Source: Polyangiales bacterium
GTDB taxonomy: Bacteria > Myxococcota_A > Polyangia > Polyangiales > Houyiibacteriaceae
Direction: 5' to 3'
NCBI GenBank assembly: GCA_965227405.1
Contig: OZ245758.1
Span: 1,577,693 to 1,641,692 of the forward strand
Length of the DNA: 64,000 nucleotides
Below the pieces are notes generated by a model, which saw only the letters and a list, made by a program, of their open reading frames with translations, was not told the origin of the DNA and did no database searches. The first letter of the stretch is position 1, and each line of letters starts with the position of its first letter. Shown in pieces: positions 15,516 through 29,957 of this stretch. Made by a program: the position numbers and the translations under genes.

Positions 15516-16196
15516 TTAGATGCGCGTGATCACGATCGGCTCGGGTCGTCGATCTCGGGGACGACGCGGACGACGCGGACGACGAACTTCAGGCGCGAGT
15601 TCGAGTTCTTGGTCCCAGGTGAACACCTCGTCATGCGCCGAGATGTTGAACTCGACGTAGGGCTCTTCCGGGCGAAGTCGTGAGTTCACCGTCGTGTCGA
15701 GCTTGAGGTGAAAGGTCGTCTCTGGATCGGTCTCGCGATGGAAATGTGCGACGCCCTCGGCGTTGGTCGTGGCAACCACTTCGTTGTTCAGCAGCACCGG
15801 AACGTCGGGCTGACCCGTTCGGACAATAAACGCCGCTTGGCGCTTCATCGGCGGACACGCCAAGAGCATGTGCAGTCCGGCCTGAGCCTCTGGATCCAAC
15901 GCGCGGAAGCGGTGAAGACGAAGGGTCTGCGGCCCCTCGGGCTGAACATGGCCCTCTGGACACGTGTAGGTGATCTCGACAGCGGCACCATCAGGTCCGC
16001 GCAACATCGTCTGGACAACCCCATCCTCATCCGAAGCACCGACGTTCGCGCCGTTTGCGCTCACTGCCACACCGCCGAGCGGAAGGCCCAGATCGGACTC
16101 GGTTGTGAAGGTCACCGCAAAACTCGAACTGGTCGGCCCTGTCTGAGCTCCACACGCGAGAGCAAACAAAATCGACGTAATTCCGGTAATTCTCAT
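15516..16196 (-). CDS. Lipoprotein, hypothetical; terminal gene of the Tad-like operon
   Basis: Likely start MRITGITSILFALACG (lipobox). The ATG overlaps the stop of the upstream FHA gene as ATGA. C-terminal RRPRRPRRPRDRRPEP basic tail. Confidence 0.5.
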   Translation of the reverse strand: MRITGITSILFALACGAQTGPTSSSFAVTFTTESDLGLPLGGVAVSANGANVGASDEDGVVQTMLRGPDGAAVEITYTCPEGHVQPEGPQTLRLHRFRALDPEAQAGLHMLLACPPMKRQAAFIVRTGQPDVPVLLNNEVVATTNAEGVAHFHRETDPETTFHLKLDTTVNSRLRPEEPYVEFNISAHDEVFTWDQELELAPEVRRPRRPRRPRDRRPEPIVITRI

Positions 16197-17710
16197 GGCG
16201 TACACTCCGTCCCGTTCCGTCTGACATTCCGACGGCACTCAACCTTGGCTCGAATTACAGCAGCCGCGGCTGTGTATTCGGGGTTGGGATAGTCCGATGC
16301 CAAAAGCTCATAGAGAGCGAGAGCATCTTCGAGCTGATTGGTCATCGCGGCATCGACCGCCTTCTTCTCGATCAGCTTTTGCTCTGCGACTCGAATCGCT
16401 GCAGTGCGCTCTTCTTCCGTGGCGCGACGCCCGAGTTCATCCACGGCTTCTTCGCGCGCGGTTTCCAGGTCTGCGCTAATCACGCCCATGATGCGCTCGC
16501 GTTCGGCGACCTGCTGTTGCGCGACGCGCGCGCGATCGGCCCGGATTCGTTGCCGGAGGTTGTCGGCGATCGTCTGCGCTTCCTGCGCCTGACGTTCCTG
16601 CTCCGCCACGGCCGCTGCTTCGGCAGCCGCGCGTTGGCGCTTCTTCTGGATCGCTTGCAACGTCAGTGCGCCAAGAGCCACGAGCAGGGTGATCGCAAAG
16701 AGGATCATCGTGCGTTGCGGTGGACGCTCGAGCCCTTTCTTTTCCTCAAGCTCGTCGCCGGTTGGAATCGGTGGCAACGCAAACGAGCCACCGCCCGGTC
16801 CCACGTGCATGCGGTCGCCCGGCGGAGCCGCACCCGCACCCGCATCTTTCGGAATGATGTCCGTCGCGACCGACGACTGCATCAGCGTCGGGCGTTGCTC
16901 CACGACAGCACCACCACCAGGTCCAACCGCAGGCGGAAGTGCCTGCGCACCCGGCGCAGCCATCGGCGGAACATCACCGATCGCTGCAGGGTCGAGAACC
17001 TGGGTCTTGAACTCTTGGCGTCCGCCCATGACGGGCTTGGCGGTCGAGTCGTTCATCTGAAAACCGACTGTCGGCGGAGCCGCACGCCCACCACCGGGTG
17101 CAGAGGGAACACCGGTTCCGAGACGCGGTGCGGCCAAACCCGCGGGCGGTGCAACCACGCCACCGATTGGTGTGGGTGCGGATGGACCTCCCGAATGCGG
17201 CGGAACCATCCCCTCTTCGTAGATCGCCGTGGCGTCATCGTCCGCGAAGTCGTCAAGAGAACCGATGGGCAACGCGGCTTGTGAGGTGAGTGTCGGCGCG
17301 GGCGCGCGTGGTGCAACTGGTGCCGCAGGTGCAGCGGGTGCAGGTGGAGCGGCAACAGGGGCGGGTGCGGCAGGCGCAGCAACCGCTTGTGCACCCGACG
17401 TTTCGACCGCCATCGCTCCGCCGCCAAACTGAAGTTGGCATTGCCCCGTCAGCTGTCGCCACGACTGCACGGGCTGTCCGTTGACTGCAAGCGTGCCGGC
17501 CATGGGCGGTCCGACCCAGAGTGCTTTGCCGTCCCAATACAGTTCGAAGTGAACCGCTTGAACGCCTGGCGCTTGAACGTTCCAACCCGCATCGGCACCG
17601 CTTCCCACCGTGACGCGTGCTTCAGGTAGTGCGCTCGAAAGATCCCACATGGCCGCGCCGGAGTTACCAGCGACGAGCTTGACCCGAGCCCAATGCGAGG
17701 GAGCGTTCAT
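16193..17710 (-). CDS. FHA-domain protein with Pro/Ala-rich linker, a single TM helix and a C-terminal coiled coil
   Basis: N-terminal FHA-like fold (VTVGSGADAGWNVQ...VHFELYWDGKALWV...NGQPV). Long P/A-rich low-complexity region. TM helix ILFAITLLVALGALTL. Charged coiled-coil tail. Confidence 0.6.
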   Translation of the reverse strand: MNAPSHWARVKLVAGNSGAAMWDLSSALPEARVTVGSGADAGWNVQAPGVQAVHFELYWDGKALWVGPPMAGTLAVNGQPVQSWRQLTGQCQLQFGGGAMAVETSGAQAVAAPAAPAPVAAPPAPAAPAAPVAPRAPAPTLTSQAALPIGSLDDFADDDATAIYEEGMVPPHSGGPSAPTPIGGVVAPPAGLAAPRLGTGVPSAPGGGRAAPPTVGFQMNDSTAKPVMGGRQEFKTQVLDPAAIGDVPPMAAPGAQALPPAVGPGGGAVVEQRPTLMQSSVATDIIPKDAGAGAAPPGDRMHVGPGGGSFALPPIPTGDELEEKKGLERPPQRTMILFAITLLVALGALTLQAIQKKRQRAAAEAAAVAEQERQAQEAQTIADNLRQRIRADRARVAQQQVAERERIMGVISADLETAREEAVDELGRRATEEERTAAIRVAEQKLIEKKAVDAAMTNQLEDALALYELLASDYPNPEYTAAAAVIRAKVECRRNVRRNGTECTP

Positions 17711-17711
17711 A

Positions 17712-18875
17712 TCAGTGCGTGGCGAGTCCTGCGCCGGGGTCGTTCGCGTCGGGGATCTCGTAACCCGCCGCGCGCGCCGCGTCGTAGAGCATTTGAGGAA
17801 GTTCGAGGCCCATCGCTCGAATCATGTCGAGACAACGGGGGAGTCGACCCGTGGGGTTGAACTCCGAAATCACCTTGCCGTTGTTGTCGCGACCAACGTA
17901 CTTGCGGATGAAAATATCTCCGAGCTGGTAGCCCGTGCTCGGCTCGTACCCCAGCACCTCGGTGATGTGGGTCACGCAACGCGAGCCATCGAGCAAGCGC
18001 GTGGTCTGCACGATGAAGTTGATGGCGGACGCGATCTGCGCACGCATCGCCTGGAGCGGAATCTCGACGTCACTCATCATCGCCATCGTCTCAAGACGGT
18101 TGAGTGTGTCGATCGGATAGGTCGCGTGAACCGTGGACAGACAACCACCGTGACCGGAGGTCATCGCCTGGATGAGTTCAAGAGCCTCACCGCTTCGAAT
18201 CTCACCCACCACGATTCGGTCCGGACGCATACGAAGCGTCGCCTTGAAGAGATCGCGAATGGTGACCTTGCCGCGTCCACGCGGGTCAGGGGGCTGTGCT
18301 TCCATCTGCACAACGTGCGGAAGCTGCAGCTGAAGTTCGCGCGCATCCTCGATGACGACCACGCGCTCTTCGGGAAGTGCAAAGGACGAGAGACAGTTGA
18401 GCAGCGAGGTCTTTCCCGAACCCGTACCGCCAGCGACGATCACGTTCTGTTTGGCGGCGACAACCGCCTGCATGACCTGGGCTGCTTCGGGTGTGAAGCT
18501 CTTGTATTGCAGGAGCTTTTCGATCGTCAGCGTGTCCTTGCTGAAACGACGAATCGCAACGCTGGGGCCATCTGGGGAAGCCGGCGGAATGACTGCCTCG
18601 ACACGCGAACCATCCGGCAAACGTGCTTCGAGAATCGGAACGAACTCGTTGATCTGGCGACCGACGAACTGCGAAAGGTTGCGCAGCGCGGACATCAACG
18701 CTTCGTGCGAGGGGAACTTCGCCTCGGTCTTGTAGAGCTGTCCGCCGCGCTCCACGTAAATCTCCGCAGGTCCGTTGATCATGATCTCGGACACCGAGGG
18801 ATCATCGAGAAAGGGTCGAATCGGATCGAAGAAGCTCAAGAGCGTCTGTTCGAAGACTTCACGCGGAATCGGCAT
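17712..18875 (-). CDS. cpaF: CpaF/TadA-family secretion ATPase (second ATPase of the locus; no FHA domain)
   Basis: 387 aa. Walker A VIVAGGTGSGKTSLLN, Asp box, Walker B and His box are all characteristic of the type II/IV secretion NTPase family. Stop/start are coupled with the upstream TPR gene. Confidence 0.85.
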   Translation of the reverse strand: MPIPREVFEQTLLSFFDPIRPFLDDPSVSEIMINGPAEIYVERGGQLYKTEAKFPSHEALMSALRNLSQFVGRQINEFVPILEARLPDGSRVEAVIPPASPDGPSVAIRRFSKDTLTIEKLLQYKSFTPEAAQVMQAVVAAKQNVIVAGGTGSGKTSLLNCLSSFALPEERVVVIEDARELQLQLPHVVQMEAQPPDPRGRGKVTIRDLFKATLRMRPDRIVVGEIRSGEALELIQAMTSGHGGCLSTVHATYPIDTLNRLETMAMMSDVEIPLQAMRAQIASAINFIVQTTRLLDGSRCVTHITEVLGYEPSTGYQLGDIFIRKYVGRDNNGKVISEFNPTGRLPRCLDMIRAMGLELPQMLYDAARAAGYEIPDANDPGAGLATH

Positions 18876-19534
18876 CAGACTCCTCCCTCGGGAGCGGGCG
18901 TGTCGCCCTCAGCGGGCTCGGTGTTGGCCGAACCGTCGGTCACATGATCGTCGAGTCGCTCGATGCGCTGAACCGTCGGTCGAAGTAGTTCACGAACTTC
19001 ATCGGCATGGTTGCCGTCAGGAGCGAGTTCGATATAGCGCTGCAGATACTGACGCGCGGCGTCCATGTCCTCGTGCTGCTCGTGATGGAGCATTCCTAGC
19101 GCGTAGTAGGGAACCGGTTCCTCGGGTGCGTCGCGCACCACCTTCTCCAGTTCAAGTCGCGCCTCTTCGTCGGAGCCCATCGCGATGTGCAAGGTGGCAA
19201 CGAGGTAACGAAGCGCCCAGTTTTCGGGATGGTCACGCAGGTAGGGATCCGCATGGTGCAGCGCGATGGCGTAGCGCTGCGACGCGATACAAACACGAAG
19301 CAGCGCTGGAAGTGCTTGCTCCCGGTCGTACCCCTTCTCGATCGCCGCCAGGATGTACTGCTCAGCACGCACCAGGTCACCACGCTCCGCCATGCCCAAT
19401 CCGTGGGCATAGAGCTCCTCCGCTTGGACGTCGTCCAAGGGATCTGGAGTGGGTGTTCGTGATTGGGAGGATGAGCCTCCGCATCCAAGAAGCACCGCAA
19501 GAATGATCGTCGACCTCAGCGGTGAACGCGCCAT
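18875..19534 (-). CDS. TPR-repeat lipoprotein (TadD-like)
   Basis: Probable start MARSPLRSTIILAVLLGCGGSS (lipobox). The rest is TPR-like helical repeats (AEELYAHGLGMAERGD...). Confidence 0.6.
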   Translation of the reverse strand: MARSPLRSTIILAVLLGCGGSSSQSRTPTPDPLDDVQAEELYAHGLGMAERGDLVRAEQYILAAIEKGYDREQALPALLRVCIASQRYAIALHHADPYLRDHPENWALRYLVATLHIAMGSDEEARLELEKVVRDAPEEPVPYYALGMLHHEQHEDMDAARQYLQRYIELAPDGNHADEVRELLRPTVQRIERLDDHVTDGSANTEPAEGDTPAPEGGV

Positions 19535-19556
19535 CGCAGGCAGGACTATACCAAAA

Positions 19557-20438
19557 TCACTCTCGACGCTCTCGCTCCTTGTCCCAGCGCCCTTGAACGA
19601 TGCGACGGGTTCGATCGAGCCACACCACGTACTCGTTCTCATCATCGAGATGGTCGACCAAACGACTCAACGCACGGGTTTCGACAAACGAACGCTCCCA
19701 GTCCTCGGTCTGCAACGCATGGTGCAGGCGTAGCCGACGCGCAGCGTATTCCGCTTCCACGGTTTCTTGCAGTTCGGCTGCAAGAGCATCCATTTCGGCT
19801 GCCTTGTCGGTGTTGCTCGCGTCTCGGTAACACTGCGCGGCCTGCTTGTAGAGCATCACAGACCGAACGCCATCACGGAGGTCGTAATTGAGTCGGTCTC
19901 CGCGCGCGTGAGCACGAAACTCGGTTTGGACTGCACGTTCCGATGCCTCTTGCGAACCTTCGGGGCACGCTTGTGCCTGCTCTTCACCGAAGAGCGCAGG
20001 CGGCTCGATACCCTCGCCGGACGGAAGCCCTTCCGCCGAGCGCTTGGACAAAATCATCCAACCGCCACCGGCAACCGCAACCACCAACGCGATCAAAAGA
20101 ACCGGGCTGACGCCACCGTCTTTGTCGTCTTTCGACGCGCGCTTGTTGGTGACGCGAATGCGCAAGCGACCGATCGCAAACTCGCTGCCCCAGGGAACGA
20201 TGCCACTGGTGAAGGGCTTGCCCTTGAGCATGGTCGGTGTGAGCGCGCCCTGGGATGTACTGACCCAGCATCCTTCTTTGCCGCGTGGCGCGAGAAGAAG
20301 ATGTTCGAGCTCGAGTTCCCGTGCAGCGGGCACCGAGATCTGCGCGGAGCCGGACTTGCCCAGCGTGACCTGCGCACCCTCGATCGGAAACCGATCTTGG
20401 GTTCCATCTGGATTCACGATTTCGACAAATGCATCCAC
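19557..20438 (-). CDS. FHA-domain membrane protein
   Basis: N-terminal FHA-like region (VTLGKSGSAQISVP ... GKPFTSGIVPWGSEFAIGRLRIRV). TM helix VLLIALVVAVAGGGWMIL. C-terminal soluble domain. Confidence 0.6.
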   Translation of the reverse strand: MDAFVEIVNPDGTQDRFPIEGAQVTLGKSGSAQISVPAARELELEHLLLAPRGKEGCWVSTSQGALTPTMLKGKPFTSGIVPWGSEFAIGRLRIRVTNKRASKDDKDGGVSPVLLIALVVAVAGGGWMILSKRSAEGLPSGEGIEPPALFGEEQAQACPEGSQEASERAVQTEFRAHARGDRLNYDLRDGVRSVMLYKQAAQCYRDASNTDKAAEMDALAAELQETVEAEYAARRLRLHHALQTEDWERSFVETRALSRLVDHLDDENEYVVWLDRTRRIVQGRWDKERERRE

Positions 20439-20439
20439 G

Positions 20440-21342
20440 TCACAACCCCGTAGCCATCCACTTGACGACGAACGGCCCCAAGAGAAGGAGAATGATACAG
20501 ACGAACATCAACATGAGGGGACCCATCATCATGATGCCCGCCTTTGCGGCGTTTTCCTCTGCGCGAACACTGCGACGCATGCGCAGCATTCTCGCCTGAA
20601 TCATCAAGACCTCGGAAAGCGGCGTACCCTTGGCCTCGGCCTGAACAACCGTGTTCACGAAGTCTTTCACCGCATCGATCGGCACTCGCTCGGCAAACCC
20701 TTCGAGTGCTTTTCGACGGGTGTGACCGAGTTCGAGCTCCTGCAGAATGCGACCGAACTCTTCCTTGATGACCGCGTCCTTCGACGACGACTTGTCGACG
20801 ATCTGCTTCACGGCACCCGGGAAGTCCAAACCAGCACTCATGCAAAGTGCGGCAAGGTCGATCGAGGTCGGAAGCGATCGGTTGACCGACTTGAACCGCT
20901 CATTCGCCTCACCGGTCAGTCGCGACCAGGGGATGTACGCACCCATGAAGATCGCGACCATTACCAAGATGACCGGCAAGTCGAGCATGAACACGGCAAA
21001 GAAACCAAAGCCCATCATGCCGATGCCGCACATCAGGCTGAGTGCGATGAACTCGTTGGCGCTCAGCCCAAGCCAGTCACCCGCGTACGTGATTTGCTCC
21101 TGAACCGACTTGCGGAGCTTCGGCATCGGAACGCCTTCGAACCAACCTGCGACCAAGCGCATGGCCGGTTCCATGGTTGCAAAGAGACCGCCGGCTTCCA
21201 TCGCTCGACGACGCTTCAAACCACGAAGGCCCAGTTCGGGACGTTTCGCCGGCGGGTTGCGCCCGAGGATGAACGTAATGACAAAGAGACCGCCGGCGAC
21301 TAGCGCCAAGGCTCCAAATCCGAGTAGGCGAGTCGGGCTCAT
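20440..21342 (-). CDS. tadC: TadC-like pilus assembly inner-membrane platform protein (T2SS-F domain)
   Basis: T2SSF-type topology and size. Start chosen at MSPTRLLGFGALAL, whose ATG overlaps the tadB stop. The longer ORF in the track would overlap tadB by 115 nt. Confidence 0.7.
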   Translation of the reverse strand: MSPTRLLGFGALALVAGGLFVITFILGRNPPAKRPELGLRGLKRRRAMEAGGLFATMEPAMRLVAGWFEGVPMPKLRKSVQEQITYAGDWLGLSANEFIALSLMCGIGMMGFGFFAVFMLDLPVILVMVAIFMGAYIPWSRLTGEANERFKSVNRSLPTSIDLAALCMSAGLDFPGAVKQIVDKSSSKDAVIKEEFGRILQELELGHTRRKALEGFAERVPIDAVKDFVNTVVQAEAKGTPLSEVLMIQARMLRMRRSVRAEENAAKAGIMMMGPLMLMFVCIILLLLGPFVVKWMATGL

Positions 21343-22208
21343 CAGATGTCCACCGCGAGAATCTTTCGGGCCCAAACGATCGAGATGAACCACATGGTCA
21401 ACGCGATGCCCGTGATCGTGTAGCCGATAAAGCCGGATGCGAGCGGCTTGAGCCACTCCGGATCGATCAGGCTCAACACACCCGACATGACGAAGGGCAT
21501 GGCACCCAACACGACTGTCTGACCCTTACCTTCGGCGGTCTTGGTCTTCACGACGCCCTCGAGACGTGACATCTCGCGAAGCGTACCGGCCGAACTTTCC
21601 AACACCGCGGAGAGGTCACCACCGGTCTGACGCGCGATGACGATCGTGGCCAACGCACCTGCGATGGTCTGACTCTGCATGCGCTCGGCAGCGTTCAACA
21701 CGGCCTTATCCACCGGCGTACCGAGCTGGTTCTCCTTCACGAGGAGGTCGAGTTCCTCGCTCATCGGTGCCTGAACCAGCTGAACGGTGGACTTGATCGC
21801 CTCACCAATGGCGGGCGTTGCCTTCAGTGCGTTCGAAAGCATGAGCAACCAACCATCGAGCTGCGCTTCAAGCTGTTCGATGCGCTTGCCCTGCTCCGAC
21901 TCAAGCCACGCCCAAGGGATGAACGCGATACCCATCAACGCGATCAACAGCGCGGGGTGACCGGTCGCCGTAAACGCCAGACCACAAGCTGCAAGGGCGA
22001 GCGCCTGAGTGCGCGCGATCTCGGTGCCGCTCTTTTTGAGCAGCAGAAACTTCACGTACTTGTCGAGGAAGCGAACGTACTGGTCCCACTTGTCTTTGAC
22101 GGGACTGCTCGGCATCGCGAGCGCCATGTAGATCGCGCCGAATCCCCCGAGGCCCATCAGAGCGATGGCCAACCAACCCGAGAGCGGGCTTTGAAGAAAC
22201 GCGGTCAT
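21342..22208 (-). CDS. tadB: TadB-like pilus assembly inner-membrane platform protein (T2SS-F domain)
   Basis: 288 aa. N-terminal TM, cytoplasmic T2SSF domain, C-terminal TM pair. Located directly downstream of the ATPase. Confidence 0.7.
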   Translation of the reverse strand: MTAFLQSPLSGWLAIALMGLGGFGAIYMALAMPSSPVKDKWDQYVRFLDKYVKFLLLKKSGTEIARTQALALAACGLAFTATGHPALLIALMGIAFIPWAWLESEQGKRIEQLEAQLDGWLLMLSNALKATPAIGEAIKSTVQLVQAPMSEELDLLVKENQLGTPVDKAVLNAAERMQSQTIAGALATIVIARQTGGDLSAVLESSAGTLREMSRLEGVVKTKTAEGKGQTVVLGAMPFVMSGVLSLIDPEWLKPLASGFIGYTITGIALTMWFISIVWARKILAVDI

Positions 22209-23938
22209 AGATACTCCCCGTCGTCGACCAAACCGTAGGTGATGAACTCGTCCAAGAACGAGGGCAGGTAGCCGCTTGCGCGGAACTCACCCGTGATCGT
22301 CCCGTCGGACTCAGTACCGGTTCGGTGGTACAGAAAGATGTCGTTCAACACGAACTCGCCATCGTCGTTGAGGCCGTTGAGTTCGGTGATCGCGCTCACG
22401 CGACGCGAACCATCGGAGAAACGCGTCTGCTGCACGACCAAGTGAACACTGGTGGAGATCTGCTCGCGGATCGCGCGAGAAGGAAGATCGATACCGCTCA
22501 TGAGACACAGGGTCTCGATACGTTTCACAGCCTCTTCAGGACTGTTGGCGTGGGTCGTGGTCATCGAACCTTCGTGACCGGTGTTCATGGCCTGAAGCAT
22601 GTCGAGTGCCTCACCGCCGCGACACTCACCGACGACGATTCGGTCCGGACGCATACGCAACGCGTTCTTCACCAGGTCGCGAATCGAGTACTCACCGCGA
22701 CCCTCCATGTTCGGCGGGCGCGTTTCGAGCGACACAACGTGCGGCTGCTCAAGACGAAGCTCGGCAGCATCCTCGATCGTCACAATACGCTCGGCAGAGG
22801 GAATGGCGGAACTGAGCACGTTAAGCAGTGTGGTCTTACCCGAGCCGGTACCGCCACTGATGACGACGTTCTTTCGCACCTTCACGGCGCGAATCAGGAA
22901 CATCGCCATGCGTTCGTTCATCGATCCAAAGCCCACCAAGTCCTTGATGGTCAGGGGATTCTTCTGGAACTTACGAATCGTGATGCAGGCGCCGTTGATG
23001 GCCAGCGGCTTGATGATCGCGTTCACGCGCGAGCCATCTTTGAGGCGCGCATCGACGAGCGGAGTCGACTCATCGATACGTCGACCCAACGGCGTGACGA
23101 TACGTTCGATGACCGCGCGCGCCGACTCATCGTCGGTGAAGCGCAAATCGGTCGCCCAGATCTTGCCGCCCTTCTCGATGTAAATCTTGTAGGGGTGGAC
23201 GACCATGATCTCGCTGCAGTCGTCGTCGGCGAGCAAGCGCTCGAGCGGTCCAAGACCCAAGGCCTCATCCGCCATTTCACGCTTGAACGCGTCCTGATCG
23301 GCCTGCGGCGGAATGTCGTGCTGCAGCTGCTGGAAGATGCGGTGCAAGGCCTGCATGACCTTGGGACGCATCGTGACGTCGTCCATCGCGCCGCGATCGA
23401 GACTCGCGAGGTCCAAGTGGTCGAGCAACATGCGGTGCACGCGACGACGCAACTCGACGCTAATGTCCGAGGTGCCACCTGCGATCTTCAGGAAGCGCTC
23501 GTCCTTGCCCGACGTGGTGCTGTCGAGATCGACTTTGCGCGAACTGGAACTCTGTGGCTTTTGCTGCTGCGCTTGCTGTGGCGGTTTGGGAACCGTCGTT
23601 GCAACCGGTTGTGAACGCGGCGGAGGCGGAGGCTCGCCAATCCGTCGCAGACGAACCAGGTAGGGTCCGATCCGCAACGGAATGTTTGGCGGCGTGTCCA
23701 CCTTGCTGCGCTTGACGCGTTGACTGCCCATCAACGTGCCGTTGGCAGACTGATCGGTGAGTTTGAAGCCCCGTGAAGACGGCTCGACGATCAGGTGTCG
23801 ACGGCTGACTTCGGGGGATGGGAGGACGACATGACAGCTTGGATCCCGCCCGATCACGACGGGACCGTCCGCTTGGATCGGTAGTTCTTCAACCGACCCG
23901 TCGGGCATCTCGATGGAAAGGAGAACGCCGGCTGTCAT
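22205..23938 (-). CDS. cpaF: FHA-domain / CpaF(TadA)-family secretion ATPase fusion
   Basis: 577 aa. N-terminal FHA (VVIGRDPSCHVVLPSPEVSRRHLIVE...FKLTDQSANGTLMG). Pro/Gln-rich linker. Complete CpaF core with Walker A VVISGGTGSGKTTLLN. Confidence 0.85.
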   Translation of the reverse strand: MTAGVLLSIEMPDGSVEELPIQADGPVVIGRDPSCHVVLPSPEVSRRHLIVEPSSRGFKLTDQSANGTLMGSQRVKRSKVDTPPNIPLRIGPYLVRLRRIGEPPPPPRSQPVATTVPKPPQQAQQQKPQSSSSRKVDLDSTTSGKDERFLKIAGGTSDISVELRRRVHRMLLDHLDLASLDRGAMDDVTMRPKVMQALHRIFQQLQHDIPPQADQDAFKREMADEALGLGPLERLLADDDCSEIMVVHPYKIYIEKGGKIWATDLRFTDDESARAVIERIVTPLGRRIDESTPLVDARLKDGSRVNAIIKPLAINGACITIRKFQKNPLTIKDLVGFGSMNERMAMFLIRAVKVRKNVVISGGTGSGKTTLLNVLSSAIPSAERIVTIEDAAELRLEQPHVVSLETRPPNMEGRGEYSIRDLVKNALRMRPDRIVVGECRGGEALDMLQAMNTGHEGSMTTTHANSPEEAVKRIETLCLMSGIDLPSRAIREQISTSVHLVVQQTRFSDGSRRVSAITELNGLNDDGEFVLNDIFLYHRTGTESDGTITGEFRASGYLPSFLDEFITYGLVDDGEYL

Positions 23939-23949
23939 GTCCCTTCGTC

Positions 23950-25113
23950 TCAGTCCTCGTCGGAGGACTCGTCCTCTGCGGTGTTGGTTCGAAGTCGCGC
24001 ACCGGGCGGTCGCGGCTGCTCCACAAGCTCAACCTCGGCAACGCCGCCGCGGAAGTCCTCGTAGATACGAATCGCTTCCTGGATTCGGTTGCGTTGTTGA
24101 AGCGGAATGCCCTGCACGATCGTGGGAATGATGAAGAGCAAGGTCTCGCTCTCTTCCCAACGACGCGAGTGCGATCCGAAGAGTGCACCCAGCACAGGAA
24201 TCTGGCTCAGGCCCGGGAAGCCATCGCGGCTGCGCTGACCCGAACGCGCGATCACGCCACCGAGCACGACCGACTGACCAAGCTCCATGTTGACCAAGGT
24301 GGACAACGTCGAAACGTTACGACCGGGAACACCGGAACCACCGTCATCGGTCAGGTCCGAGACGTCTGCGTTGATCTGGATCTCGAGACGACCACTCTCC
24401 GGATCGTAACGAGGTGTGCAGGTGAGGATTGTGCCGAACTCGATGGTTTCGATCGAACCACCCACGTTGCCCGGAACGAGGAAGTTCACCTCGCCGCCGA
24501 CGTTCACCTGAGCTTGCTGACCGTTGACGGCCACAACGCTCGCCTGACGATAAATGCGCGACCATCCGTTGGACTGCGCGATATCCAAGCGCGGAAGAAT
24601 CGATGAGCTGGTCAGGTTGATGCTGGTCTGCGCACCACCCTCACCTTGAACCCACTGGGTGTTGATGGCCGCAATACTCTGCTGCTGTCCACCGCCACCG
24701 ATCGAGTCGGGGAACCGGATACCAATCGCATGCGAGTACCGATCGACGAGCTGCACAAAGTAGAGGTCGAGACGAATCGTCTCTTTCTCTTCGATCCGCC
24801 CCTCCGGGACTTCCTCGGTCCCGCCCGGCACGGTGATGCGGTACTGCACCTGCGAGCCATCGCGCATGATCATCAGCAGCGATGTGCGACCGGGCTGAAC
24901 GCCGACCAGGATGAAACGGCTCTGATCAGAGGTGAGGCGAACATCGACGATGCCGCGCGTGCCTTCCGAGTAGCTGCGCACACCTTCGGCGGAAATGGAT
25001 GTCTGTTCGCCAACCTCGACCGTAATTTCGCGCTCGCGCTGCGCATGTACGGTCGCGGTTGCTGCCACGAGCGCCACACAACAAGCGGCTCGAATTAGGG
25101 TTCTGTGACTCAT
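23950..25113 (-). CDS. cpaC: CpaC/RcpA-type secretin
   Basis: Signal peptide. N-terminal pilus-formation domain (ITVEVGEQTSISAEGVRSYSEGTRGIVDVRL...). C-terminal secretin domain (VVLGGVIARSGQRSRDGFPGLSQIPVLGALFGS). Confidence 0.85.
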   Translation of the reverse strand: MSHRTLIRAACCVALVAATATVHAQREREITVEVGEQTSISAEGVRSYSEGTRGIVDVRLTSDQSRFILVGVQPGRTSLLMIMRDGSQVQYRITVPGGTEEVPEGRIEEKETIRLDLYFVQLVDRYSHAIGIRFPDSIGGGGQQQSIAAINTQWVQGEGGAQTSINLTSSSILPRLDIAQSNGWSRIYRQASVVAVNGQQAQVNVGGEVNFLVPGNVGGSIETIEFGTILTCTPRYDPESGRLEIQINADVSDLTDDGGSGVPGRNVSTLSTLVNMELGQSVVLGGVIARSGQRSRDGFPGLSQIPVLGALFGSHSRRWEESETLLFIIPTIVQGIPLQQRNRIQEAIRIYEDFRGGVAEVELVEQPRPPGARLRTNTAEDESSDED

Positions 25114-25907
25114 CGGTTTCCTCGAATCTCCTCGATCATGAAAGCTCTGGGACGCGAACGCTGCGCCATCGCCAGTTTCAGAGGCTCGATCAAATCCTCA
25201 TCGGTGGTCTCGGGAACGTCTTGAATGATCTGCATGTCGTCGCCGTTGCGAAGAAGCAGACTGAGATCTCCACGATCACGTCCATGCGTGATCATCGTCG
25301 CTTGCTCGATCGTCACCGCGACACTGACATCGACACCACGCGTGACTGCGCGATCGCTCGACTCGTCTTCGGCTTCGTCGGGTGCGCCGGTGTCGAGACC
25401 CACGGCCAGGACCAGCACGTTTTGAAGAAGCGGAACCGTGACGCGCGAAACGGAGCGCGGTCGGTTTCCGGTGAGCAAGATGTCGACGCGGTTGCCCGGA
25501 CGAAGCAAGCCACCAAACGACGCGGCATCGGACACGCGGATCGTCATCGCGCGCATGCCTTGACGAAGAAGCGCACTCAGATCGCGACGTGAGCCTGCGT
25601 TGGTGCTCAGATCGGTCCAGAACAGAGACTCGTCCGAGTTGATTCGGTTCAGGACGCGAACACCGAGAATGCGCTCGCGATCGGTGGACAGAATGTGGCG
25701 GTCTTCAATGTGCGCCTGAGGAAGCGAGGTTGTGCCCAGCTCCTCGATCGTGATCGGTTCGCCGACCTCGATGTCTGCCGTCGCACGCAGAACGTCGATG
25801 CGATCACCACCGGCCGCTTCCACGGAGAATCGCTTTGTGTAGAGCACAAAGAGAGCGATTCCCGCGATCACGACGATCGTTGCAGCTAGGAGTGCTGTCC
25901 GGTTCAT
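25110..25907 (-). CDS. cpaB: CpaB/RcpC-type Flp pilus assembly protein (SAF domain)
   Basis: N-terminal TM LLAATIVVIAGIALFVL. SAF-like segment LRATADIEVGEPITIEEL. Typical size and gene position upstream of cpaC. Confidence 0.8.
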   Translation of the reverse strand: MNRTALLAATIVVIAGIALFVLYTKRFSVEAAGGDRIDVLRATADIEVGEPITIEELGTTSLPQAHIEDRHILSTDRERILGVRVLNRINSDESLFWTDLSTNAGSRRDLSALLRQGMRAMTIRVSDAASFGGLLRPGNRVDILLTGNRPRSVSRVTVPLLQNVLVLAVGLDTGAPDEAEDESSDRAVTRGVDVSVAVTIEQATMITHGRDRGDLSLLLRNGDDMQIIQDVPETTDEDLIEPLKLAMAQRSRPRAFMIEEIRGNR

Positions 25908-26023
25908 CCTTCAGGCCCAAGCACAAGCAGGGTGCGGACGCTGACCATACCGCACCCGGGGGCTCAGTTCATCAACAGGTTTGTCGATGTCCGCTGAAAA
26001 TGACCTGGATTTGGAGTGTCGGC

Positions 26024-26590
26024 CTACACCAAGGGGATGACGTGTCGGTGAACAATCACCGCGATACACCCGACCAGAAATGCAGGCCCAATCCGAATCC
26101 GCGAGAGACTTTCGCGTTTGATCTTGCGCTTTCGGGCCTTCGGGAGAAACGGGTTGGTCAGGATGATTCCAACATTCTTGAAGGTTTGAAGCAGCTTCCC
26201 CTCGATCGCGAGTTTGCCGATCCCAAAGATCCCCACGGCAAAGAGCGTGGCGATTCCGACTTCGAGACCGATCTTCAGACCCACGATTCCACCGACGGCT
26301 GCGAGGAGCTTGACGTCTCCGCCTCCTCCGGCTCGCAGTTCTTGGCCGGGTGTCGGAATTCGAGCCTTAAATAGCAGAAACGGCACCAGCCCACACCCGA
26401 CGATGCCGAGTATTGAGGCGAGTGCCGCTTCTACGCCGCCCAACAAACCGTGGGCGATTGGCGCCGCAATCAAGGGTGGGAAGGTCAGCCAGTTTCGAAT
26501 CTTGCCCGTCCGGTAGTCCGTGATTGCAGCAACGAGACAAATGCTCGTGGCAATCGCGAGACCGACAAGATCCGGCCGGAGCTGAGGCAT
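26024..26590 (-). CDS. cpaA: A24-family prepilin peptidase (CpaA/TadV)
   Basis: 188 aa polytopic protein. Conserved Asp sites ITDYRTGKIRN and GGGDVKLLAAVG are typical of TadV/CpaA. Confidence 0.8.
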   Translation of the reverse strand: MPQLRPDLVGLAIATSICLVAAITDYRTGKIRNWLTFPPLIAAPIAHGLLGGVEAALASILGIVGCGLVPFLLFKARIPTPGQELRAGGGGDVKLLAAVGGIVGLKIGLEVGIATLFAVGIFGIGKLAIEGKLLQTFKNVGIILTNPFLPKARKRKIKRESLSRIRIGPAFLVGCIAVIVHRHVIPLV

Positions 26591-26616
26591 CCCACCCCAG
26601 GCGGGGCCAGGCTAGG

Positions 26617-26838
26617 TCAGGGCAGGCCGTTGATGGCGGCGGTCGACTGGTCCGCCTTACCGGTCACGGCGTTACCGAAGTTCTGCCATGCAACGATCGC
26701 GATAATCGCAATCAAAATCAGGATGATGACGTACTCAACCGTCGAAAGTCCCTCTTCGTCTTGAAGAAGCGCCTTGTTCTCGAGATCGATCATGGGTTCA
26801 ACCCTCTCCTTTGGTACCGAGCTATGCCGGACGTTCAA
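26617..26838 (-). CDS. flp: Flp-family pilin precursor
   Basis: 73 aa. Flp processing motif G/LSTVEYVIILILIAIIAIVAW (G-XXXXEY followed by a hydrophobic segment). Strong RBS AAGGAGAG 7 nt upstream of the ATG at 26838. Confidence 0.85.
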   Translation of the reverse strand: MNVRHSSVPKERVEPMIDLENKALLQDEEGLSTVEYVIILILIAIIAIVAWQNFGNAVTGKADQSTAAINGLP

Positions 26839-26847
26839 TGCCTAACA

Positions 26848-26900
26848 CCCAGGCTCACTTGTTGTACGGGGTACGTGCAGGGCTTGTCAAGCCATATTGT
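26848..26900 (-). promoter_or_regulatory. Candidate promoter region for the flp/Tad-like operon
   Basis: TTGACA hexamer on the minus strand at 26890-26885, with a weak -10-like GTACAA/TACAAC about 17 nt downstream. This is the AT-richer leader of the pilin gene. No other signal seen. Confidence 0.25.
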
Positions 26901-28565: not shown

Positions 28566-29957
28566 TTACCTCTTGCGCTGCCAGACCGCGATGTGTGCGT
28601 TGCGGTACCGCTCCTCCCACCTGGGACTCTCCAAGAGCGCACGCGGCTGGTTCTCATCCAGCAACATCACGTGCTGAACATCCGGAAATTCGTCGATGAG
28701 CTCGATGTCTCCCGCCTCGATGCGAATAAAGCGCACCCAATCGTCATACGAAGCGACTTCCGAGCGGGCATCGAAGAGCACGCGGTTACGCAAATCCGGC
28801 CGATAGAAGAGCAGCCAGTCGCCGCGTTGTTCATCTGCCAAGATGTTGCCTTCAGCGTAGGGCAGCTCGAGCGCCTCACGTGGCCACTCCTCCGCGATCG
28901 CGGCAGGGACTCGGTTGAGTGCGATCACCACCGAGACGAGCCACACCGCCATCGCCAACGCGGCCACGTGTCGGCTCGAGCGAACTTCGCTCTCCCGCGG
29001 CGCCAAAAGCAGATCCAACATCGATGGGCCAAACACGACCAGACCAAAGCCCAGGATCAAGCCGTAGCGCATTCCGAGCATGCTGATGCCCGCGACCACC
29101 GCGAGGTAGAGCGCGTACTCAAACTTGAGTTTCTTGAACGTTGCCAGCAGGCCGAGGCCCAAGACACACACCATCGACACGTGAACCGGTTCAGTTGCAA
29201 AGGTGGGCATCAGCCATTCGATGAACGGCCCCGCGTCTGTGGTCATCTTCAACCAGTACGGAGGCAACCAGTACGGCGACACCAACGTGGCAGCCATAAA
29301 CGAAAGCCCCATCGCAACTCGCTCCACCGCAATGGTTCGCTCACGCCGACGACGAACCAGGGTGATCAGCGCCGAGAGTCCGAGCAATCCTGCACCCAAG
29401 ATCGCCGAGCCGTGCAGGTTGGTCCACAGCACCAACATCGGCACACCCAACCAAAGCCGACGGTTGCGCGCTTGGTTGGGTTGTGAGGTCGAAAGCTCAT
29501 CGACCACCAACCAGAACGTGCATCCCAGCAAGGGCCAAATGAACGTTTGCGCGCGCATCACCGAGTAGGTCGGCAAAAGACAAAGGCCAAAGAGCACGCC
29601 CATGGCGACGCGCATCGAGCTGGCGCCAGTTTTTCGGGCGGCGAGTGCGGCGATCGCTAAGCCCAGACCTTCGAGAAAGCCTTCGAGCACCATGCACACT
29701 TCAAAACCACCGAAGGAGAAGATGCGGTTCCAGCTAATGTGCGAAAGCCATTGAGCGTCGATCCACCAAGTGCCTGCGGCGACGACGGTGACGTTGTTGG
29801 TGTGGGGTAGGCCGTGCTCGAGGATGTCGCGGCCGAAGAAGAGGCAGAACCACGTGTCGCCGGAGACCGCGCTTTCGAAACGCAAGATGACCGCGCACGC
29901 CCACAACGTGACGAGCAGCACCGTGGGTCCGTATCGAGTGCGTGCGTTGGCGTTCAT
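28566..29957 (-). CDS. Polytopic membrane protein (about 10 TM) with a C-terminal soluble domain; possibly a GT-C-like glycosyltransferase (speculative)
   Basis: 463 aa. The hydrophobic N-terminal about 350 aa plus a soluble tail resembles the topology of ArnT/PMT-like enzymes. No diagnostic motif identified. Confidence 0.35.
   Translation of the reverse strand: MNANARTRYGPTVLLVTLWACAVILRFESAVSGDTWFCLFFGRDILEHGLPHTNNVTVVAAGTWWIDAQWLSHISWNRIFSFGGFEVCMVLEGFLEGLGLAIAALAARKTGASSMRVAMGVLFGLCLLPTYSVMRAQTFIWPLLGCTFWLVVDELSTSQPNQARNRRLWLGVPMLVLWTNLHGSAILGAGLLGLSALITLVRRRRERTIAVERVAMGLSFMAATLVSPYWLPPYWLKMTTDAGPFIEWLMPTFATEPVHVSMVCVLGLGLLATFKKLKFEYALYLAVVAGISMLGMRYGLILGFGLVVFGPSMLDLLLAPRESEVRSSRHVAALAMAVWLVSVVIALNRVPAAIAEEWPREALELPYAEGNILADEQRGDWLLFYRPDLRNRVLFDARSEVASYDDWVRFIRIEAGDIELIDEFPDVQHVMLLDENQPRALLESPRWEERYRNAHIAVWQRKR

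What the first reader, a model, noticed from the sequence alone, without database searches (positions are those of the whole stretch)
15516..26900. Complete Tad/Flp-type apparatus with two CpaF ATPases (one FHA-fused), two more FHA proteins and no CpaE/TadZ: a Kil-like predation/secretion machine?
Eleven or twelve co-directional, mostly translationally coupled genes: flp pilin, A24 prepilin peptidase, CpaB, CpaC secretin, FHA-CpaF, TadB, TadC, FHA membrane protein, TadD-like TPR lipoprotein, a second CpaF, FHA/coiled-coil membrane protein, and a lipoprotein. Canonical Tad loci have one ATPase and a ParA-like CpaE/TadZ. Here no CpaE is seen; instead there are three FHA (phosphothreonine-binding) modules and a Hanks kinase lies 11 kb away. 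This composition recalls the Tad-like Kil apparatus used by Myxococcus for contact-dependent prey killing, which to my recollection also carries FHA-domain components. This locus, however, is compact (a single cluster, a single Flp pilin, two ATPases) and may be a distinct variant. The second ATPase could be a dedicated retraction or substrate-export motor.
Basis: partly seen in the sequence, partly recalled or inferred. Interest (0 to 1): 0.72.

Follow-up and report, generated by a model that had tools for sequence, protein, structure and literature searches.

The report
Kil-like Tad pilus locus, two ATPases
This is a complete Tad/Flp pilus gene cluster of the FHA-rich "Kil-like" kind known from predatory myxobacteria; it is ordinary for its lineage (class Polyangia), but it always carries a second, shortened motor ATPase that the literature I could search does not discuss.

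Summary
Twelve co-directional, tightly packed minus-strand genes (15516-26793) encode an Flp pilin, an A24 prepilin peptidase, CpaB, a short secretin, FHA-CpaF, TadB, TadC, an FHA membrane protein, a TPR lipoprotein, a second CpaF, a second FHA membrane protein and a lipoprotein. All three FHA calls are confirmed; two needed profile searches. No CpaE/TadZ is present in the 64 kb window or in 1.3 Mb of related loci.

The locus is not unique. The order CpaB-CpaC-FHA-CpaF-TadB-TadC-FHA/TM-TPR-CpaF2 recurs in 53 of the 80 related genome loci fetched, all from Polyangia-type Myxococcota. These include Chondromyces, Labilithrix and Minicystis, genera where "Tad/Kil-like" genes were reported in 2023.

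The second ATPase differs from the characterised M. xanthus Kil system, which is described as having a single ATPase. CpaF2:
- is the best-conserved gene of the cluster;
- keeps its catalytic motifs;
- lacks the N-terminal NTD0/NTD1 domains of CpaF;
- has a charge-reversed platform-contact loop;
- is not a recent duplicate of FHA-CpaF;
- sits in a module that can occur apart from the Tad core.

Its role, retraction motor or otherwise, is inferred only. Verdict: a new variant of a known kind, of moderate interest.

The parts
26617..26793 (-). Flp-type prepilin, 58 aa; the mechanically listed ORF extends to 26838. Leader ...DEEG, mature LSTVEYVIILILIA...
   Evidence: Pfam Flp_Fap 21.5 bits, below cut-off. 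The G/xxxxEY motif is conserved in 8 homologous loci.
26024..26590 (-). A24 prepilin peptidase (TadV/CpaA/KilA-like), 188 aa
   Evidence: Peptidase_A24 49.9 bits. The catalytic motifs ITD and GGGD are conserved in homologues.
25110..25907 (-). CpaB/RcpC (KilB-like)
   Evidence: RcpC 89.2 bits. TIGR03177 CpaB equivalog 139.8 bits against a cut-off of 71.
23950..25113 (-). Short secretin CpaC/RcpA (KilC-like), 387 aa, with signal peptide
   Evidence: Secretin 110.8 bits plus T2SS-T3SS_pil_N 28.4 bits; no other Pfam hit at E <= 0.01, so no N0-type secretin N-domain was reported. A 4-nt overlap with cpaB.
22205..23938 (-). FHA-CpaF/TadA motor ATPase (KilF-like), 577 aa: FHA, a Pro/Gln-rich linker, and a CpaF-type region that aligns with KilF from residue 171 onward
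   Evidence: FHA 47.6 bits and T2SSE 208.7 bits. 53% identity to the M. xanthus KilF fragment. Walker A/B, His box, Loop 8 D and Central Loop E are all canonical.
21342..22208 (-). TadB/CpaG platform protein (KilG-like)
   Evidence: T2SSF 35.6 bits. A 4-nt overlap with the ATPase gene.
20440..21342 (-). TadC/CpaH platform protein (KilH-like); the likely start is Met39 of the listed ORF
   Evidence: T2SSF 63.9 bits. A 1-nt overlap with tadB.
19557..20438 (-). Bitopic membrane protein: N-terminal degenerate FHA, one TM helix, then a C-terminal helical TPR-like domain with conserved Cys
   Evidence: Profile A1 hits FhaA 3po8 at E=3.6e-5 and other FHA structures. The usual GR/S-x-x-H residues are replaced by GKS...ELEH. 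In the AF2 single-sequence model the C-terminal helices have pLDDT 80-89 and the N-terminus is low. Present downstream of tadC in 69 loci.
18875..19534 (-). TPR lipoprotein, 219 aa, lipobox LLGC; a candidate pilotin of TadD/PilW type
   Evidence: TPR_16, TPR_19 and TPR_14. Weak BamD and PilW NCBIfam hits, below cut-off. Conserved in 76 of 80 loci, directly upstream of CpaF2 in almost all.
17712..18875 (-). CpaF2: a second, short CpaF-type ATPase of 387 aa (NTD2 + CTD only)
   Evidence: T2SSE 193.5 bits. Aligns to C. crescentus CpaF residues 148-491. 62-88% identical in 80 loci, the highest of any gene in the cluster. Central Loop position E331 is K/R in 99% of 74 family members. Only 43% identical to FHA-CpaF.
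16193..17710 (-). Bitopic membrane protein: N-terminal FHA, Pro/Ala-rich linker, one TM helix, C-terminal coiled-coil/TPR-like region
   Evidence: Pfam FHA 18.8 bits, below cut-off. Profile A2 hits FhaA 3po8 at E=2.6e-10. Follows CpaF2 in 32 loci.
15516..16199 (-). Lipoprotein, 227 aa, lipobox FALAC, no known domain
   Evidence: No Pfam or NCBIfam hit. Conserved after the FHA membrane protein in 32 loci.
27177..28556 (-). Possible accessory: RCC1-repeat beta-propeller lipoprotein directly upstream of flp. Membership of the system is not shown.
   Evidence: RCC1 and WD40_RLD hits. Lipobox visible in the sequence. Found upstream of flp in L001 and L009.

Best explanation
The region encodes a type IVc (Tad/Flp) pilus machine of the Kil-like sub-kind found in Myxococcota. 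It is the orthologue of a cluster whose gene order is fixed across Polyangia.

Shown by sequence:
- Pilin and processing: an Flp prepilin and its A24 peptidase.
- Outer conduit: a CpaB/short-secretin pair.
- Motor and platform: a TadB/TadC platform and an FHA-fused CpaF motor closest to KilF.
- FHA proteins: two further bitopic FHA membrane proteins.
- Lipoproteins: a TPR lipoprotein and a second lipoprotein.
- TadZ/CpaE: none.

Inferred:
- FHA-CpaF with TadB/TadC polymerises the Flp pilin through the secretin.
- The TPR lipoprotein acts as pilotin.
- The three FHA modules put assembly under Ser/Thr-kinase control and replace the ParA-like TadZ as the recruiting or positioning device. The FHA of the 19557-20438 protein lacks the usual phosphothreonine-binding residues, so at least that one may be a plain scaffold.

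The second ATPase, CpaF2, keeps its catalytic motifs but lacks CpaF's NTD0/NTD1. It carries K/R where CpaF has the conserved platform-contact Glu, and it comes from a different CpaF lineage. With the TPR lipoprotein, the second FHA membrane protein and the lipoprotein it forms a module that can occur away from the Tad core.

My best guess (about 0.35) is that CpaF2 is a second motor acting on the same TadB/TadC platform in a different mode. The most likely mode is disassembly/retraction, which would make it a PilT-like partner to a PilB-like FHA-CpaF, docked by its neighbouring FHA membrane protein. A role in contact-dependent prey killing is extrapolated from M. xanthus and is not shown.
For: Domains. 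FHA folds. Operon-like packing.

Conservation:
- 536 genome stretches encode CpaF2 relatives.
- The top 80 loci are all Polyangia-type Myxococcota and include Chondromyces apiculatus, Labilithrix luteola and Minicystis rosea.
- The same gene order, with all seven core genes, occurs in 53 loci. TPR is present in 76 of 80.

Kil affinity:
- 53% identity to the KilF fragment.
- NJ grouping with KilF and FHA-T2SSE representatives.
- Kil hallmarks as described in Seef 2021.
- Tad/Kil-like genes reported in the same Polyangiales genera.

No TadZ: and the Pfam scans.

Kinase link: Hanks kinases are embedded co-directionally just downstream of CpaF2 or the lipoprotein in L019, L079, L067, L031 and L043.

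CpaF2 features:
- Aligns only to CpaF residues 148-491.
- Walker A/B and His box are intact.
- E331 is K/R in 99% of the family, against E in 94% of FHA-CpaF.
- E331K/G332A/S333A/G334A inactivates Caulobacter CpaF, and NTD0 promotes retraction (PMC11300603).
- Median identity is 66%, against 59% for FHA-CpaF and 28-48% for the other genes.
- The module is separable: L083 has CpaF2, the FHA/TM protein and the lipoprotein without the Tad core.
Against: - No functional data exist for any Polyangia copy.
- Grouping of FHA-CpaF with KilF has weak bootstraps (13-47). A 113-column comparison with the Seef supermatrix does not separate predators from beta- and gamma-proteobacterial CpaF.
- FHA-TadA fusions also occur in non-predatory lineages such as Ramlibacter and Thiodiazotropha.
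- No minor pilins (TadE/F/G, KilL/M) were found in the window, although Labilithrix has a TadE-like gene upstream of cpaB.
- No KilD orthologue was detected.
- For the retraction idea, the C-terminal-face residues reported as retraction-specific (R387, the beta13-14 turn, the C-terminal motif) do not cleanly distinguish the two paralogues.
- Non-Glu central loops are shared by a wider CpaF subclade whose gene context is unknown.
- The window's own kinase is 11 kb away, behind unrelated genes.
Confidence: 0.72

Rival explanations
1. This is an ordinary adhesive or surface-sensing Tad pilus with no role in predation. The FHA domains are generic regulatory add-ons and CpaF2 is a redundant paralogue, as reported for Bdellovibrio tadA2.
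For: FHA-TadA fusions sit in conventional RcpC-RcpA-TadA loci of gammaproteobacteria and in Ramlibacter. The duplicated rcpA2-tadA2 module of Bdellovibrio is dispensable. Placement in a 'Kil clade' is weakly supported.
Against: A redundant gene would not be the most conserved gene of the cluster over more than 50 genomes, nor keep a family-specific loop signature at 99%. The lineage, the absence of TadZ, the extra FHA membrane proteins and the short secretin all match Kil rather than Cpa/Tad.
Confidence: 0.15
2. Two machines are juxtaposed. The TPR lipoprotein, CpaF2, FHA/TM protein and lipoprotein form a separate envelope-spanning system (for example a secretion or effector-delivery module) that is merely adjacent to the Tad core and does not use TadB/TadC.
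For: The module occurs without the Tad core nearby in L083/L005, L026, L063, L034 and L043. CpaF2 comes from a different CpaF lineage and has an altered platform-contact loop.
Against: The module has no T2SSF platform, pilin or secretin of its own. A CpaF-type hexamer has no known function without a platform. In the great majority of loci it is contiguous with the core, and in the window its first two genes are translationally coupled.
Confidence: 0.15
3. CpaF2 is not an independent motor. It either forms mixed hexamers with FHA-CpaF or regulates it, for example as a TadZ substitute for recruitment.
For: TadZ is absent. CpaF2 lacks the N-terminal domains and has a divergent platform-contact loop.
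Against: Catalytic motifs are fully conserved, which argues for real ATP turnover. The two paralogues are only 43% identical. TadZ is a ParA-type protein with an unrelated fold.
Confidence: 0.1

Closest known systems
Myxococcus xanthus Kil system (kil clusters MXAN_3102-3108 and MXAN_4648-4661; Seef et al. 2021, Herrou et al. 2025)
   Same: FHA-fused TadA ATPase, short secretin, CpaB, a TadB/TadC pair, A24 peptidase, Flp-type pilin, several extra FHA proteins, an FHA protein directly after the second platform gene, no TadZ, and phylum Myxococcota.
   Different: - Here everything is in one contiguous cluster rather than two.
- A second CpaF-type ATPase is present, whereas Kil is described as having a single ATPase.
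- A TPR lipoprotein is present, whereas Kil is described as lacking TadD.
- No KilD-type protein (2xFHA-TM-long C-terminus) was detectable.
- No minor pilins or TadG-like gene are in the window.
- Myxococcia-type contigs show KilF followed by a KilD-like gene and then unrelated genes, without CpaF2.
Kil-like cluster of Bradymonas sediminis (DN745_00680-00700; Seef et al. 2021, Fig. 7 and Supplementary file 2)
   Same: One cluster with the same order: CpaB, CpaC, TadA/KilF, KilG, KilH.
   Different: I could not retrieve the Bradymonas locus (one search found nothing). Whether it has a second ATPase or the FHA/TPR module is therefore unknown.
Tad/Kil-like loci reported in Chondromyces, Minicystis, Labilithrix and Sandaracinus (Front Microbiol 2023, PMC10196010)
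   Same: Three of these genera (Chondromyces, Labilithrix, Minicystis) carry the orthologous cluster among my fetched loci (L019, L021, L069). For Sandaracinus I have only the CpaF2 homologue P0092. Identity with the loci in that paper is inferred.
   Different: That paper reports presence or absence from MacSyFinder only. The text does not mention CpaF or a second ATPase.
Caulobacter crescentus Cpa / Aggregatibacter Tad pilus (canonical type IVc)
   Same: The core set: Flp, TadV, RcpC/CpaB, RcpA/CpaC, TadA/CpaF, TadB and TadC. CpaF2 aligns to CpaF NTD2+CTD at E=1e-96.
   Different: Canonical systems have one bifunctional ATPase, a ParA-like TadZ/CpaE and TadE/F/G pseudopilins. They have no FHA modules.
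Bdellovibrio bacteriovorus Tad (TadZA fusion, tadA2, tadA3; bioRxiv 2026.07.08.737194)
   Same: A predator-associated Tad machine with ATPase paralogues and an N-terminal fusion on the main ATPase.
   Different: There the fusion partner is TadZ, not FHA. The paralogues lie in other loci, and the duplicated rcpA2-tadA2 module is dispensable. Here the paralogue is inside the operon and is the most conserved gene.
Type IVa pilus PilB/PilT motor pair
   Same: Two ATPases of one family serving one machine, with the shorter one lacking the N-terminal domain. This is an analogy in how it might work.
   Different: CpaF2 is a CpaF/TadA-type protein, not PilT: pilT_fam scores 45.8 bits against a cut-off of 319. 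No AIRNLIRE-type motif was tested, and no functional evidence exists.

Membership tests
Tad/Flp (type IVc) pilus system | Flp-type prepilin with the G/xxxxEY processing motif | tested here: met
   EEG|LSTVEY, conserved in 8 homologues. The Pfam Flp_Fap hit is below cut-off.
Tad/Flp (type IVc) pilus system | TadV/CpaA A24 peptidase, RcpC/CpaB, RcpA/CpaC secretin, TadA/CpaF ATPase, and two T2SSF platform proteins TadB and TadC | tested here: met
   All are above Pfam cut-offs. The CpaB equivalog is above cut-off.
Tad/Flp (type IVc) pilus system | ParA/MinD-like TadZ/CpaE | tested here: not met
   No deviant Walker A in six frames of the window. None in 1.3 Mb of 80 related loci. No Pfam hit. It could be encoded elsewhere in the genome.
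Tad/Flp (type IVc) pilus system | Pseudopilins TadE/TadF and TadG | tested here: not met
   No TadE or Tad (PF13400) hits among the window ORFs scanned. A TadE-like gene exists upstream of cpaB in Labilithrix L021.
Tad/Flp (type IVc) pilus system | TadD-type TPR lipoprotein pilotin | tested here: inconclusive
   A TPR lipoprotein is present and conserved. It gives only weak BamD and PilW hits, and no TadD-specific family appeared among the hits.
Kil system (M. xanthus-type Tad-like killing apparatus) | Central ATPase fused to an N-terminal FHA domain | tested here: met
   FHA 47.6 bits plus T2SSE 208.7 bits. 53% identity to the KilF fragment.
Kil system (M. xanthus-type Tad-like killing apparatus) | Over-representation of FHA proteins among accessory genes | tested here: met
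   Two further FHA membrane proteins.
Kil system (M. xanthus-type Tad-like killing apparatus) | Short secretin without an N0 domain | tested here: met
   387 aa. Only the pil_N and Secretin domains were found, with no other Pfam hit at E <= 0.01.
Kil system (M. xanthus-type Tad-like killing apparatus) | Single ATPase | tested here: not met
   A second T2SSE ATPase lies inside the operon and is conserved in all 80 loci.
Kil system (M. xanthus-type Tad-like killing apparatus) | KilD (2xFHA, TM, long C-terminal region) encoded next to KilF | tested here: not met
   KilD-like proteins from Myxococcia-type contigs match the window only through FHA similarity to FHA-CpaF.
Kil system (M. xanthus-type Tad-like killing apparatus) | Core proteins fall inside the Myxococcales/Bradymonadales/Bdellovibrionales clade of Seef et al., Fig. 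7 | tested here: inconclusive
   The NJ tree groups FHA-CpaF with KilF, but bootstraps are 13-47. The 113-column supermatrix block is not discriminating. KilB, KilG and KilH were not tested.
Kil system (M. xanthus-type Tad-like killing apparatus) | Assembly at prey contact sites and requirement for contact-dependent killing | not testable with these tools
   This needs genetics and microscopy in a Polyangia strain.
CpaF/TadA ATPase family (for CpaF2) | NTD2 + CTD fold with Walker A, Asp box, Walker B and His box | tested here: met
   E=1.3e-96 to CpaF 8rjf over residues 16-360. The motifs are 97-100% conserved in 74 family members.
CpaF/TadA ATPase family (for CpaF2) | N-terminal NTD0 (disordered) and NTD1 (three-helix) domains, and a conserved Central Loop Glu (E331) | tested here: not met
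   The protein starts at the equivalent of CpaF residue ~133. Position 331 is K/R in 99% of members.
PilT-type retraction ATPase | Membership of the PilT/PilU subfamily | tested here: not met
   TIGR01420 scores 45.8 bits against a cut-off of 319. Any PilT-like role would be by analogy only.

The most novel reading that the evidence does not exclude
Polyangia have turned the normally single-motor Tad machine into a two-motor machine. A full-length, FHA-gated CpaF would drive extension. A truncated CpaF paralogue with a charge-reversed platform-contact loop would be docked by its own FHA membrane protein and drive retraction or another opposing mode. This would be an independent, Tad-lineage reinvention of the PilB/PilT division of labour, under Ser/Thr-kinase control.
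Probability: 0.25. Interest if true: 0.75.

Novelty: new variant of a known kind. Interest (0 to 1): 0.5.

Why it matters
Current work on Tad pili centres on how a single ATPase can both extend and retract the fibre. Searches cover an allosteric N-terminal model and an 'inverted hexamer' model.

A widespread natural Tad-type machine that keeps two distinct, catalytically intact CpaF paralogues in one operon would be a ready-made comparison system. One paralogue lacks the N-terminal domains and has an altered platform-contact loop. If the two motors split the work, that would show which structural features matter for each direction.

The finding also extends the Kil-type apparatus to a large, mostly uncultured class of Myxococcota. 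Kil is the only Tad machine tied to bacterial predation. The kinases embedded in some clusters give concrete candidates for the unknown contact-sensing cascade that the Kil papers postulate.

If CpaF2 turns out to be redundant, the locus is just the Polyangia copy of a known system.

Tried and rejected
1. Retrieving the Bradymonas sediminis locus with a KilF fragment taken from the Seef supermatrix: no hits.
2. Retrieving M. xanthus KilF itself: only truncated relatives were returned. I used two Myxococcia-type contigs and one contig labelled Polyangia instead.
The single-sequence model was poor in the FHA part. Foldseek against PDB gave only non-significant TPR-like matches. The AFDB library was unavailable.
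4. The promoter/terminator scan gave nothing above chance.
5. Looking up names for short CpaF-like representatives gave almost nothing; one was from Planctomycetaceae.
6. Using the reported retraction-face residues (P386/R387, beta13-14 turn, C-terminal motif) to assign roles to the two ATPases did not separate them clearly.
7. Recent duplication of FHA-CpaF as the origin of CpaF2 is rejected: 43% identity and separate tree positions.
8. A specific link between the window's Hanks kinase and the locus is not supported by position, since unrelated peptidase genes lie between them.
9. A literature search for two-ATPase Tad loci found nothing relevant apart from separate loci in Sinorhizobium and Bdellovibrio.

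Full report
OBSERVATION

The window has about 61% G+C. Between 15516 and 26838 there are twelve consecutive ORFs on the minus strand. Pfam identifies them as follows:
- a weak Flp pilin (21.5 bits, below cut-off);
- Peptidase_A24;
- RcpC/CpaB;
- Secretin with the pil_N domain;
- a 577-aa FHA+T2SSE protein;
- two T2SSF proteins;
- a protein with no FHA hit;
- a TPR protein;
- a 387-aa T2SSE protein;
- a 505-aa protein with a sub-threshold FHA hit (18.8 bits against 20.7);
- a protein with no hit.

The pilin is real. It carries the Flp processing signature EEG|LSTVEY, and this is conserved in eight homologues. The peptidase has both aspartate motifs. NCBIfam confirms CpaB as an equivalog.

For the two doubtful FHA calls I built profiles from homologues in related loci. 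The profile for the 19557-20438 protein hits the FHA domain of M. tuberculosis FhaA (3po8, E=3.6e-5) and a series of other FHA structures. The profile for the N-terminus of the 16193-17710 protein hits the same domain at E=2.6e-10. Both proteins have one transmembrane helix after the FHA domain. The TPR protein and the last protein have lipoboxes. These features are visible directly in the sequences.

With corrected starts, the junctions are -7 to +26 nt, apart from a 116-nt gap between the peptidase gene and cpaB. The 'mostly translationally coupled' description therefore holds.

ABSENCE OF CpaE/TadZ AND THE KINASE

No deviant Walker A (KGGxGK[ST]) exists in any of the six frames of the 64-kb window. 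Pfam scans of about 44 ORFs across the window found no ParA/CpaE-type protein and no TadE/TadG pseudopilins. A looser TadZ-type motif is also absent from 1.3 Mb of 80 related loci.

The Hanks kinase is at 37923-39671 (Pkinase 145.9 bits). It is separated from the locus by peptidase genes, so its position does not tie it to the locus.

WHERE THE LOCUS OCCURS

The second ATPase (CpaF2) has homologues of 66-98% identity among the 120 best of thousands of hits in the protein database, several named 'Myxococcales', 'Sandaracinaceae' or 'Polyangiaceae'. In the species-representative genome collection, 536 stretches encode relatives. The best 80 loci are all Polyangia-type Myxococcota. Most are MAGs, but they include Chondromyces apiculatus, Labilithrix luteola and Minicystis rosea. 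The closest locus (88%) is a Myxococcota MAG that also shares the flanking genes. The window therefore comes from an uncultured relative.

tblastn of all window proteins against these loci shows the order CpaB-CpaC-FHA-CpaF-TadB-TadC-FHA/TM protein-CpaF2 in 53 loci that have all seven genes. The TPR gene is present in 76 of 80, almost always directly upstream of CpaF2. The second FHA membrane protein and the lipoprotein are detectable in 32 loci each. The short pilin and the peptidase are detectable in 8 each.

Median identity of the best segment:

| Gene | Median identity |
|---|---|
| CpaF2 | 66% |
| FHA-CpaF | 59% |
| TadC | 48% |
| TadB | 40% |
| CpaB | 40% |
| CpaC | 36% |
| FHA/TM protein | 28% |

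CpaF2 is thus the most conserved gene of the cluster.

RELATION TO KIL

Seef et al. 2021 (PMC8460266) describe the M. xanthus Kil system as follows:
- it is Tad-like and split into two clusters;
- it has a single ATPase, KilF, fused to an N-terminal FHA domain;
- it includes many further FHA proteins;
- its secretin is unusually short and lacks N0;
- it has no TadD, TadG or RcpB.

Their Supplementary file 1 lists an FHA 'PrgH-like' protein (MXAN_4649) next to KilH, and FHA+TPR proteins MXAN_4648 and KilD. Supplementary file 2 lists a Bradymonas sediminis cluster in the same order as here: CpaB, CpaC, TadA, KilG, KilH.

Using the KilF part of their published supermatrix, the window's FHA-CpaF is 53% identical to M. 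xanthus KilF over 234 residues. CpaF2 is 44.5% identical.

I built a neighbour-joining tree of 162 ATPase cores (349 columns, 100 bootstraps). The Polyangia FHA-CpaF proteins form a clade with 100% support. That clade joins representatives that Pfam shows to be FHA+T2SSE, and it joins the KilF fragment. These deeper nodes have only 13-47% support. A comparison limited to the first supermatrix block does not separate predators from beta- and gamma-proteobacterial CpaF. FHA-TadA fusions also exist in ordinary Tad loci of gammaproteobacteria.

Membership of a strict 'Kil clade' is therefore likely but not proven. The resemblance rests on architecture plus lineage.

A 2023 comparative study already reported Tad/Kil-like genes in Chondromyces, Minicystis, Labilithrix and Sandaracinus, without mentioning CpaF or a second ATPase (PMC10196010).

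Contigs carrying KilF at 69-80% identity to M. xanthus show KilF followed by a 620-720-aa KilD-like gene and then unrelated genes. A further contig shows A24 and the secretin directly upstream of an FHA-T2SSE gene. None of these has TadB/C or a second ATPase adjacent. The KilD-like proteins carry two FHA domains by Pfam, and the two I translated also show a TM helix. They have no counterpart in the window beyond FHA similarity.

THE SECOND ATPase

CpaF2 aligns to the solved C. crescentus CpaF at E=1e-96, but only to residues 148-491, which are NTD2 and CTD. It lacks the disordered NTD0 and the three-helix NTD1 (domain definitions from PMC11300603). It is 43% identical to FHA-CpaF and sits elsewhere in the tree. 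Its neighbours there are other short or FHA-fused CpaF-like representatives, so it is not a recent duplicate. In a library clustered at 50% identity the family collapses into essentially one cluster, and the next relatives are at or below 53%.

I aligned 74 CpaF2 proteins, 59 Polyangia FHA-CpaF proteins and 130 representatives to CpaF numbering:
- Walker A, Walker B and the His box are intact in both families.
- The Central Loop Glu (E331) is E in 94% of FHA-CpaF and 70% of representatives, but K or R in 99% of CpaF2 (motif D-P-[KR]-G-R-G).
- The His box reads SGHGGC in CpaF2 instead of TGHDGS.
- Loop 8 D208 is D in all FHA-CpaF. In CpaF2 it is D in 77% and N in 20%; the window copy has N.

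In Caulobacter, D208K and E331K/G332A/S333A/G334A abolish function and are modelled at the CpaG/CpaH interface. Deleting NTD0 reduces retraction. A 2026 preprint proposes that CpaF retracts by binding the platform with its C-terminal face, as PilT does, while the N1 domain belongs to the extension face. The residues that preprint names (R387, the beta13-14 turn, the C-terminal motif) do not clearly separate the two paralogues. Non-Glu central loops also occur in a wider set of CpaF-like representatives.

MODULARITY AND KINASES

In L083/L005 the CpaF2 is 88% identical to the window's. There the trio CpaF2, FHA/TM protein and lipoprotein stands without any Tad core gene in the 7.6 kb upstream. 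L026, L063, L034 and L043 look similar. The cluster can therefore be read as a Kil-like core plus a separable module of TPR lipoprotein, CpaF2, FHA/TM protein and lipoprotein.

In Chondromyces apiculatus a Hanks kinase (Pkinase 157 bits, with an SH3_3 domain) lies directly after CpaF2. Co-directional kinases also occur just downstream in L079, L067, L031 and L043. A PP2C phosphatase and a kinase lie near the KilF/KilD pair in L085. This supports, but does not prove, Ser/Thr-phosphorylation control through the FHA modules.

The FHA of the 19557-20438 protein lacks the usual Arg/Ser pair (GKS...ELEH; GSG...VEH in distant homologues). It may therefore be a scaffold of the PrgH/YscD kind rather than a phosphothreonine reader.

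INTERPRETATION

Shown:
- This is a complete Tad/Flp core with an FHA-fused motor, two further FHA membrane proteins, two lipoproteins, a second CpaF-type ATPase with intact catalytic motifs and no TadZ.
- It is conserved as a unit across Polyangia.

Inferred:
- It is the Polyangia form of the Kil-type apparatus.
- FHA modules replace TadZ for recruitment and gating.
- The TPR lipoprotein is a pilotin.
- Each ATPase has a cognate bitopic FHA protein: FHA-CpaF with the 19557-20438 protein, and CpaF2 with the 16193-17710 protein.
- CpaF2 is a second motor on the same platform, most plausibly for disassembly/retraction. The grounds are its missing N-terminal domains, its altered extension-face loop and its very strong conservation.

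Rival readings are a plain adhesive Tad pilus with a redundant paralogue, two juxtaposed machines, and a regulatory or mixed-hexamer role for CpaF2. None is excluded.

NOVELTY

The system as a whole is known in kind, and its presence in Polyangiales genera has been published. The in-operon second ATPase, its signature and the separable module are not described in any paper I could search. They contradict the 'single ATPase' description of both Kil and Tad machines.

I file the locus as a new variant of a known kind, with moderate interest. The limits are the lack of functional evidence and my inability to check Bradymonas and whole Myxococcus genomes for CpaF2.

Noticed in passing
window 2741-7426 (-) and 7427-11821 (-): Two adjacent giant ORFs (1561 and 1464 aa). 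The only recognisable feature in each is a short Met-zincin (DUF4953) motif.
   Followed up: no
window 30192-32087, 32573-34492, 34489-35874, 43883-45160, 45157-46440 (all -): The neighbourhood is rich in peptidases: trypsin-like, S9 prolyl oligopeptidase, M17 aminopeptidase and a pair of M16 peptidases. This fits a proteolytic or predatory lifestyle, but no link to the locus is shown.
   Followed up: no
window 27177-28556 (-) and 28566-29957 (-): An RCC1-repeat beta-propeller lipoprotein lies directly upstream of flp and is conserved there in L001 and L009. Beside it is a polytopic membrane protein with no family. M. xanthus kil cluster 1 also begins with two beta-propeller proteins, MXAN_3102/3103.
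   Followed up: partly
L019 11182-12939 (Chondromyces apiculatus); also L079, L067, L031, L043: A Hanks-type kinase is embedded co-directionally just downstream of CpaF2 or the lipoprotein. The Chondromyces copy has an SH3_3 domain.
   Followed up: partly
L083 7642-10891 (MAG-130): The module of CpaF2, FHA/TM protein and lipoprotein stands apart from any Tad core. It is preceded by a Peptidase_S13 (PBP4/DacB-type) gene and followed, on the other strand, by M50 and FliH-like genes.
   Followed up: partly
L021 979-1500 (Labilithrix luteola): A TadE-like pseudopilin gene lies upstream of cpaB, where the window has flp and the peptidase.
   Followed up: no
window 50060-50932 (+) and 51050-52813 (-): An IS-type integrase (rve) lies next to a SIR2_2-domain protein. 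The PADLOC hits of that protein cover only the SIR2 part of short-pAgo/Aga models, and the adjacent ORF 52806-53885 has no hit.
   Followed up: partly
window 46493-48829 (-): A 778-aa protein with seven MopE-type putative copper-binding motifs.
   Followed up: no
L085 7941-11214: A PP2C/SpoIIE phosphatase and a Hanks kinase lie within 8 kb of a KilF/KilD-type gene pair in a Myxococcota MAG.
   Followed up: no
L087 (Ca. Thiodiazotropha) and P0330 (Ramlibacter), P0321: FHA-fused TadA ATPases also occur in beta- and gammaproteobacteria. In Thiodiazotropha the gene follows RcpC and a secretin in an otherwise conventional arrangement, so the fusion is not restricted to predators.
   Followed up: partly
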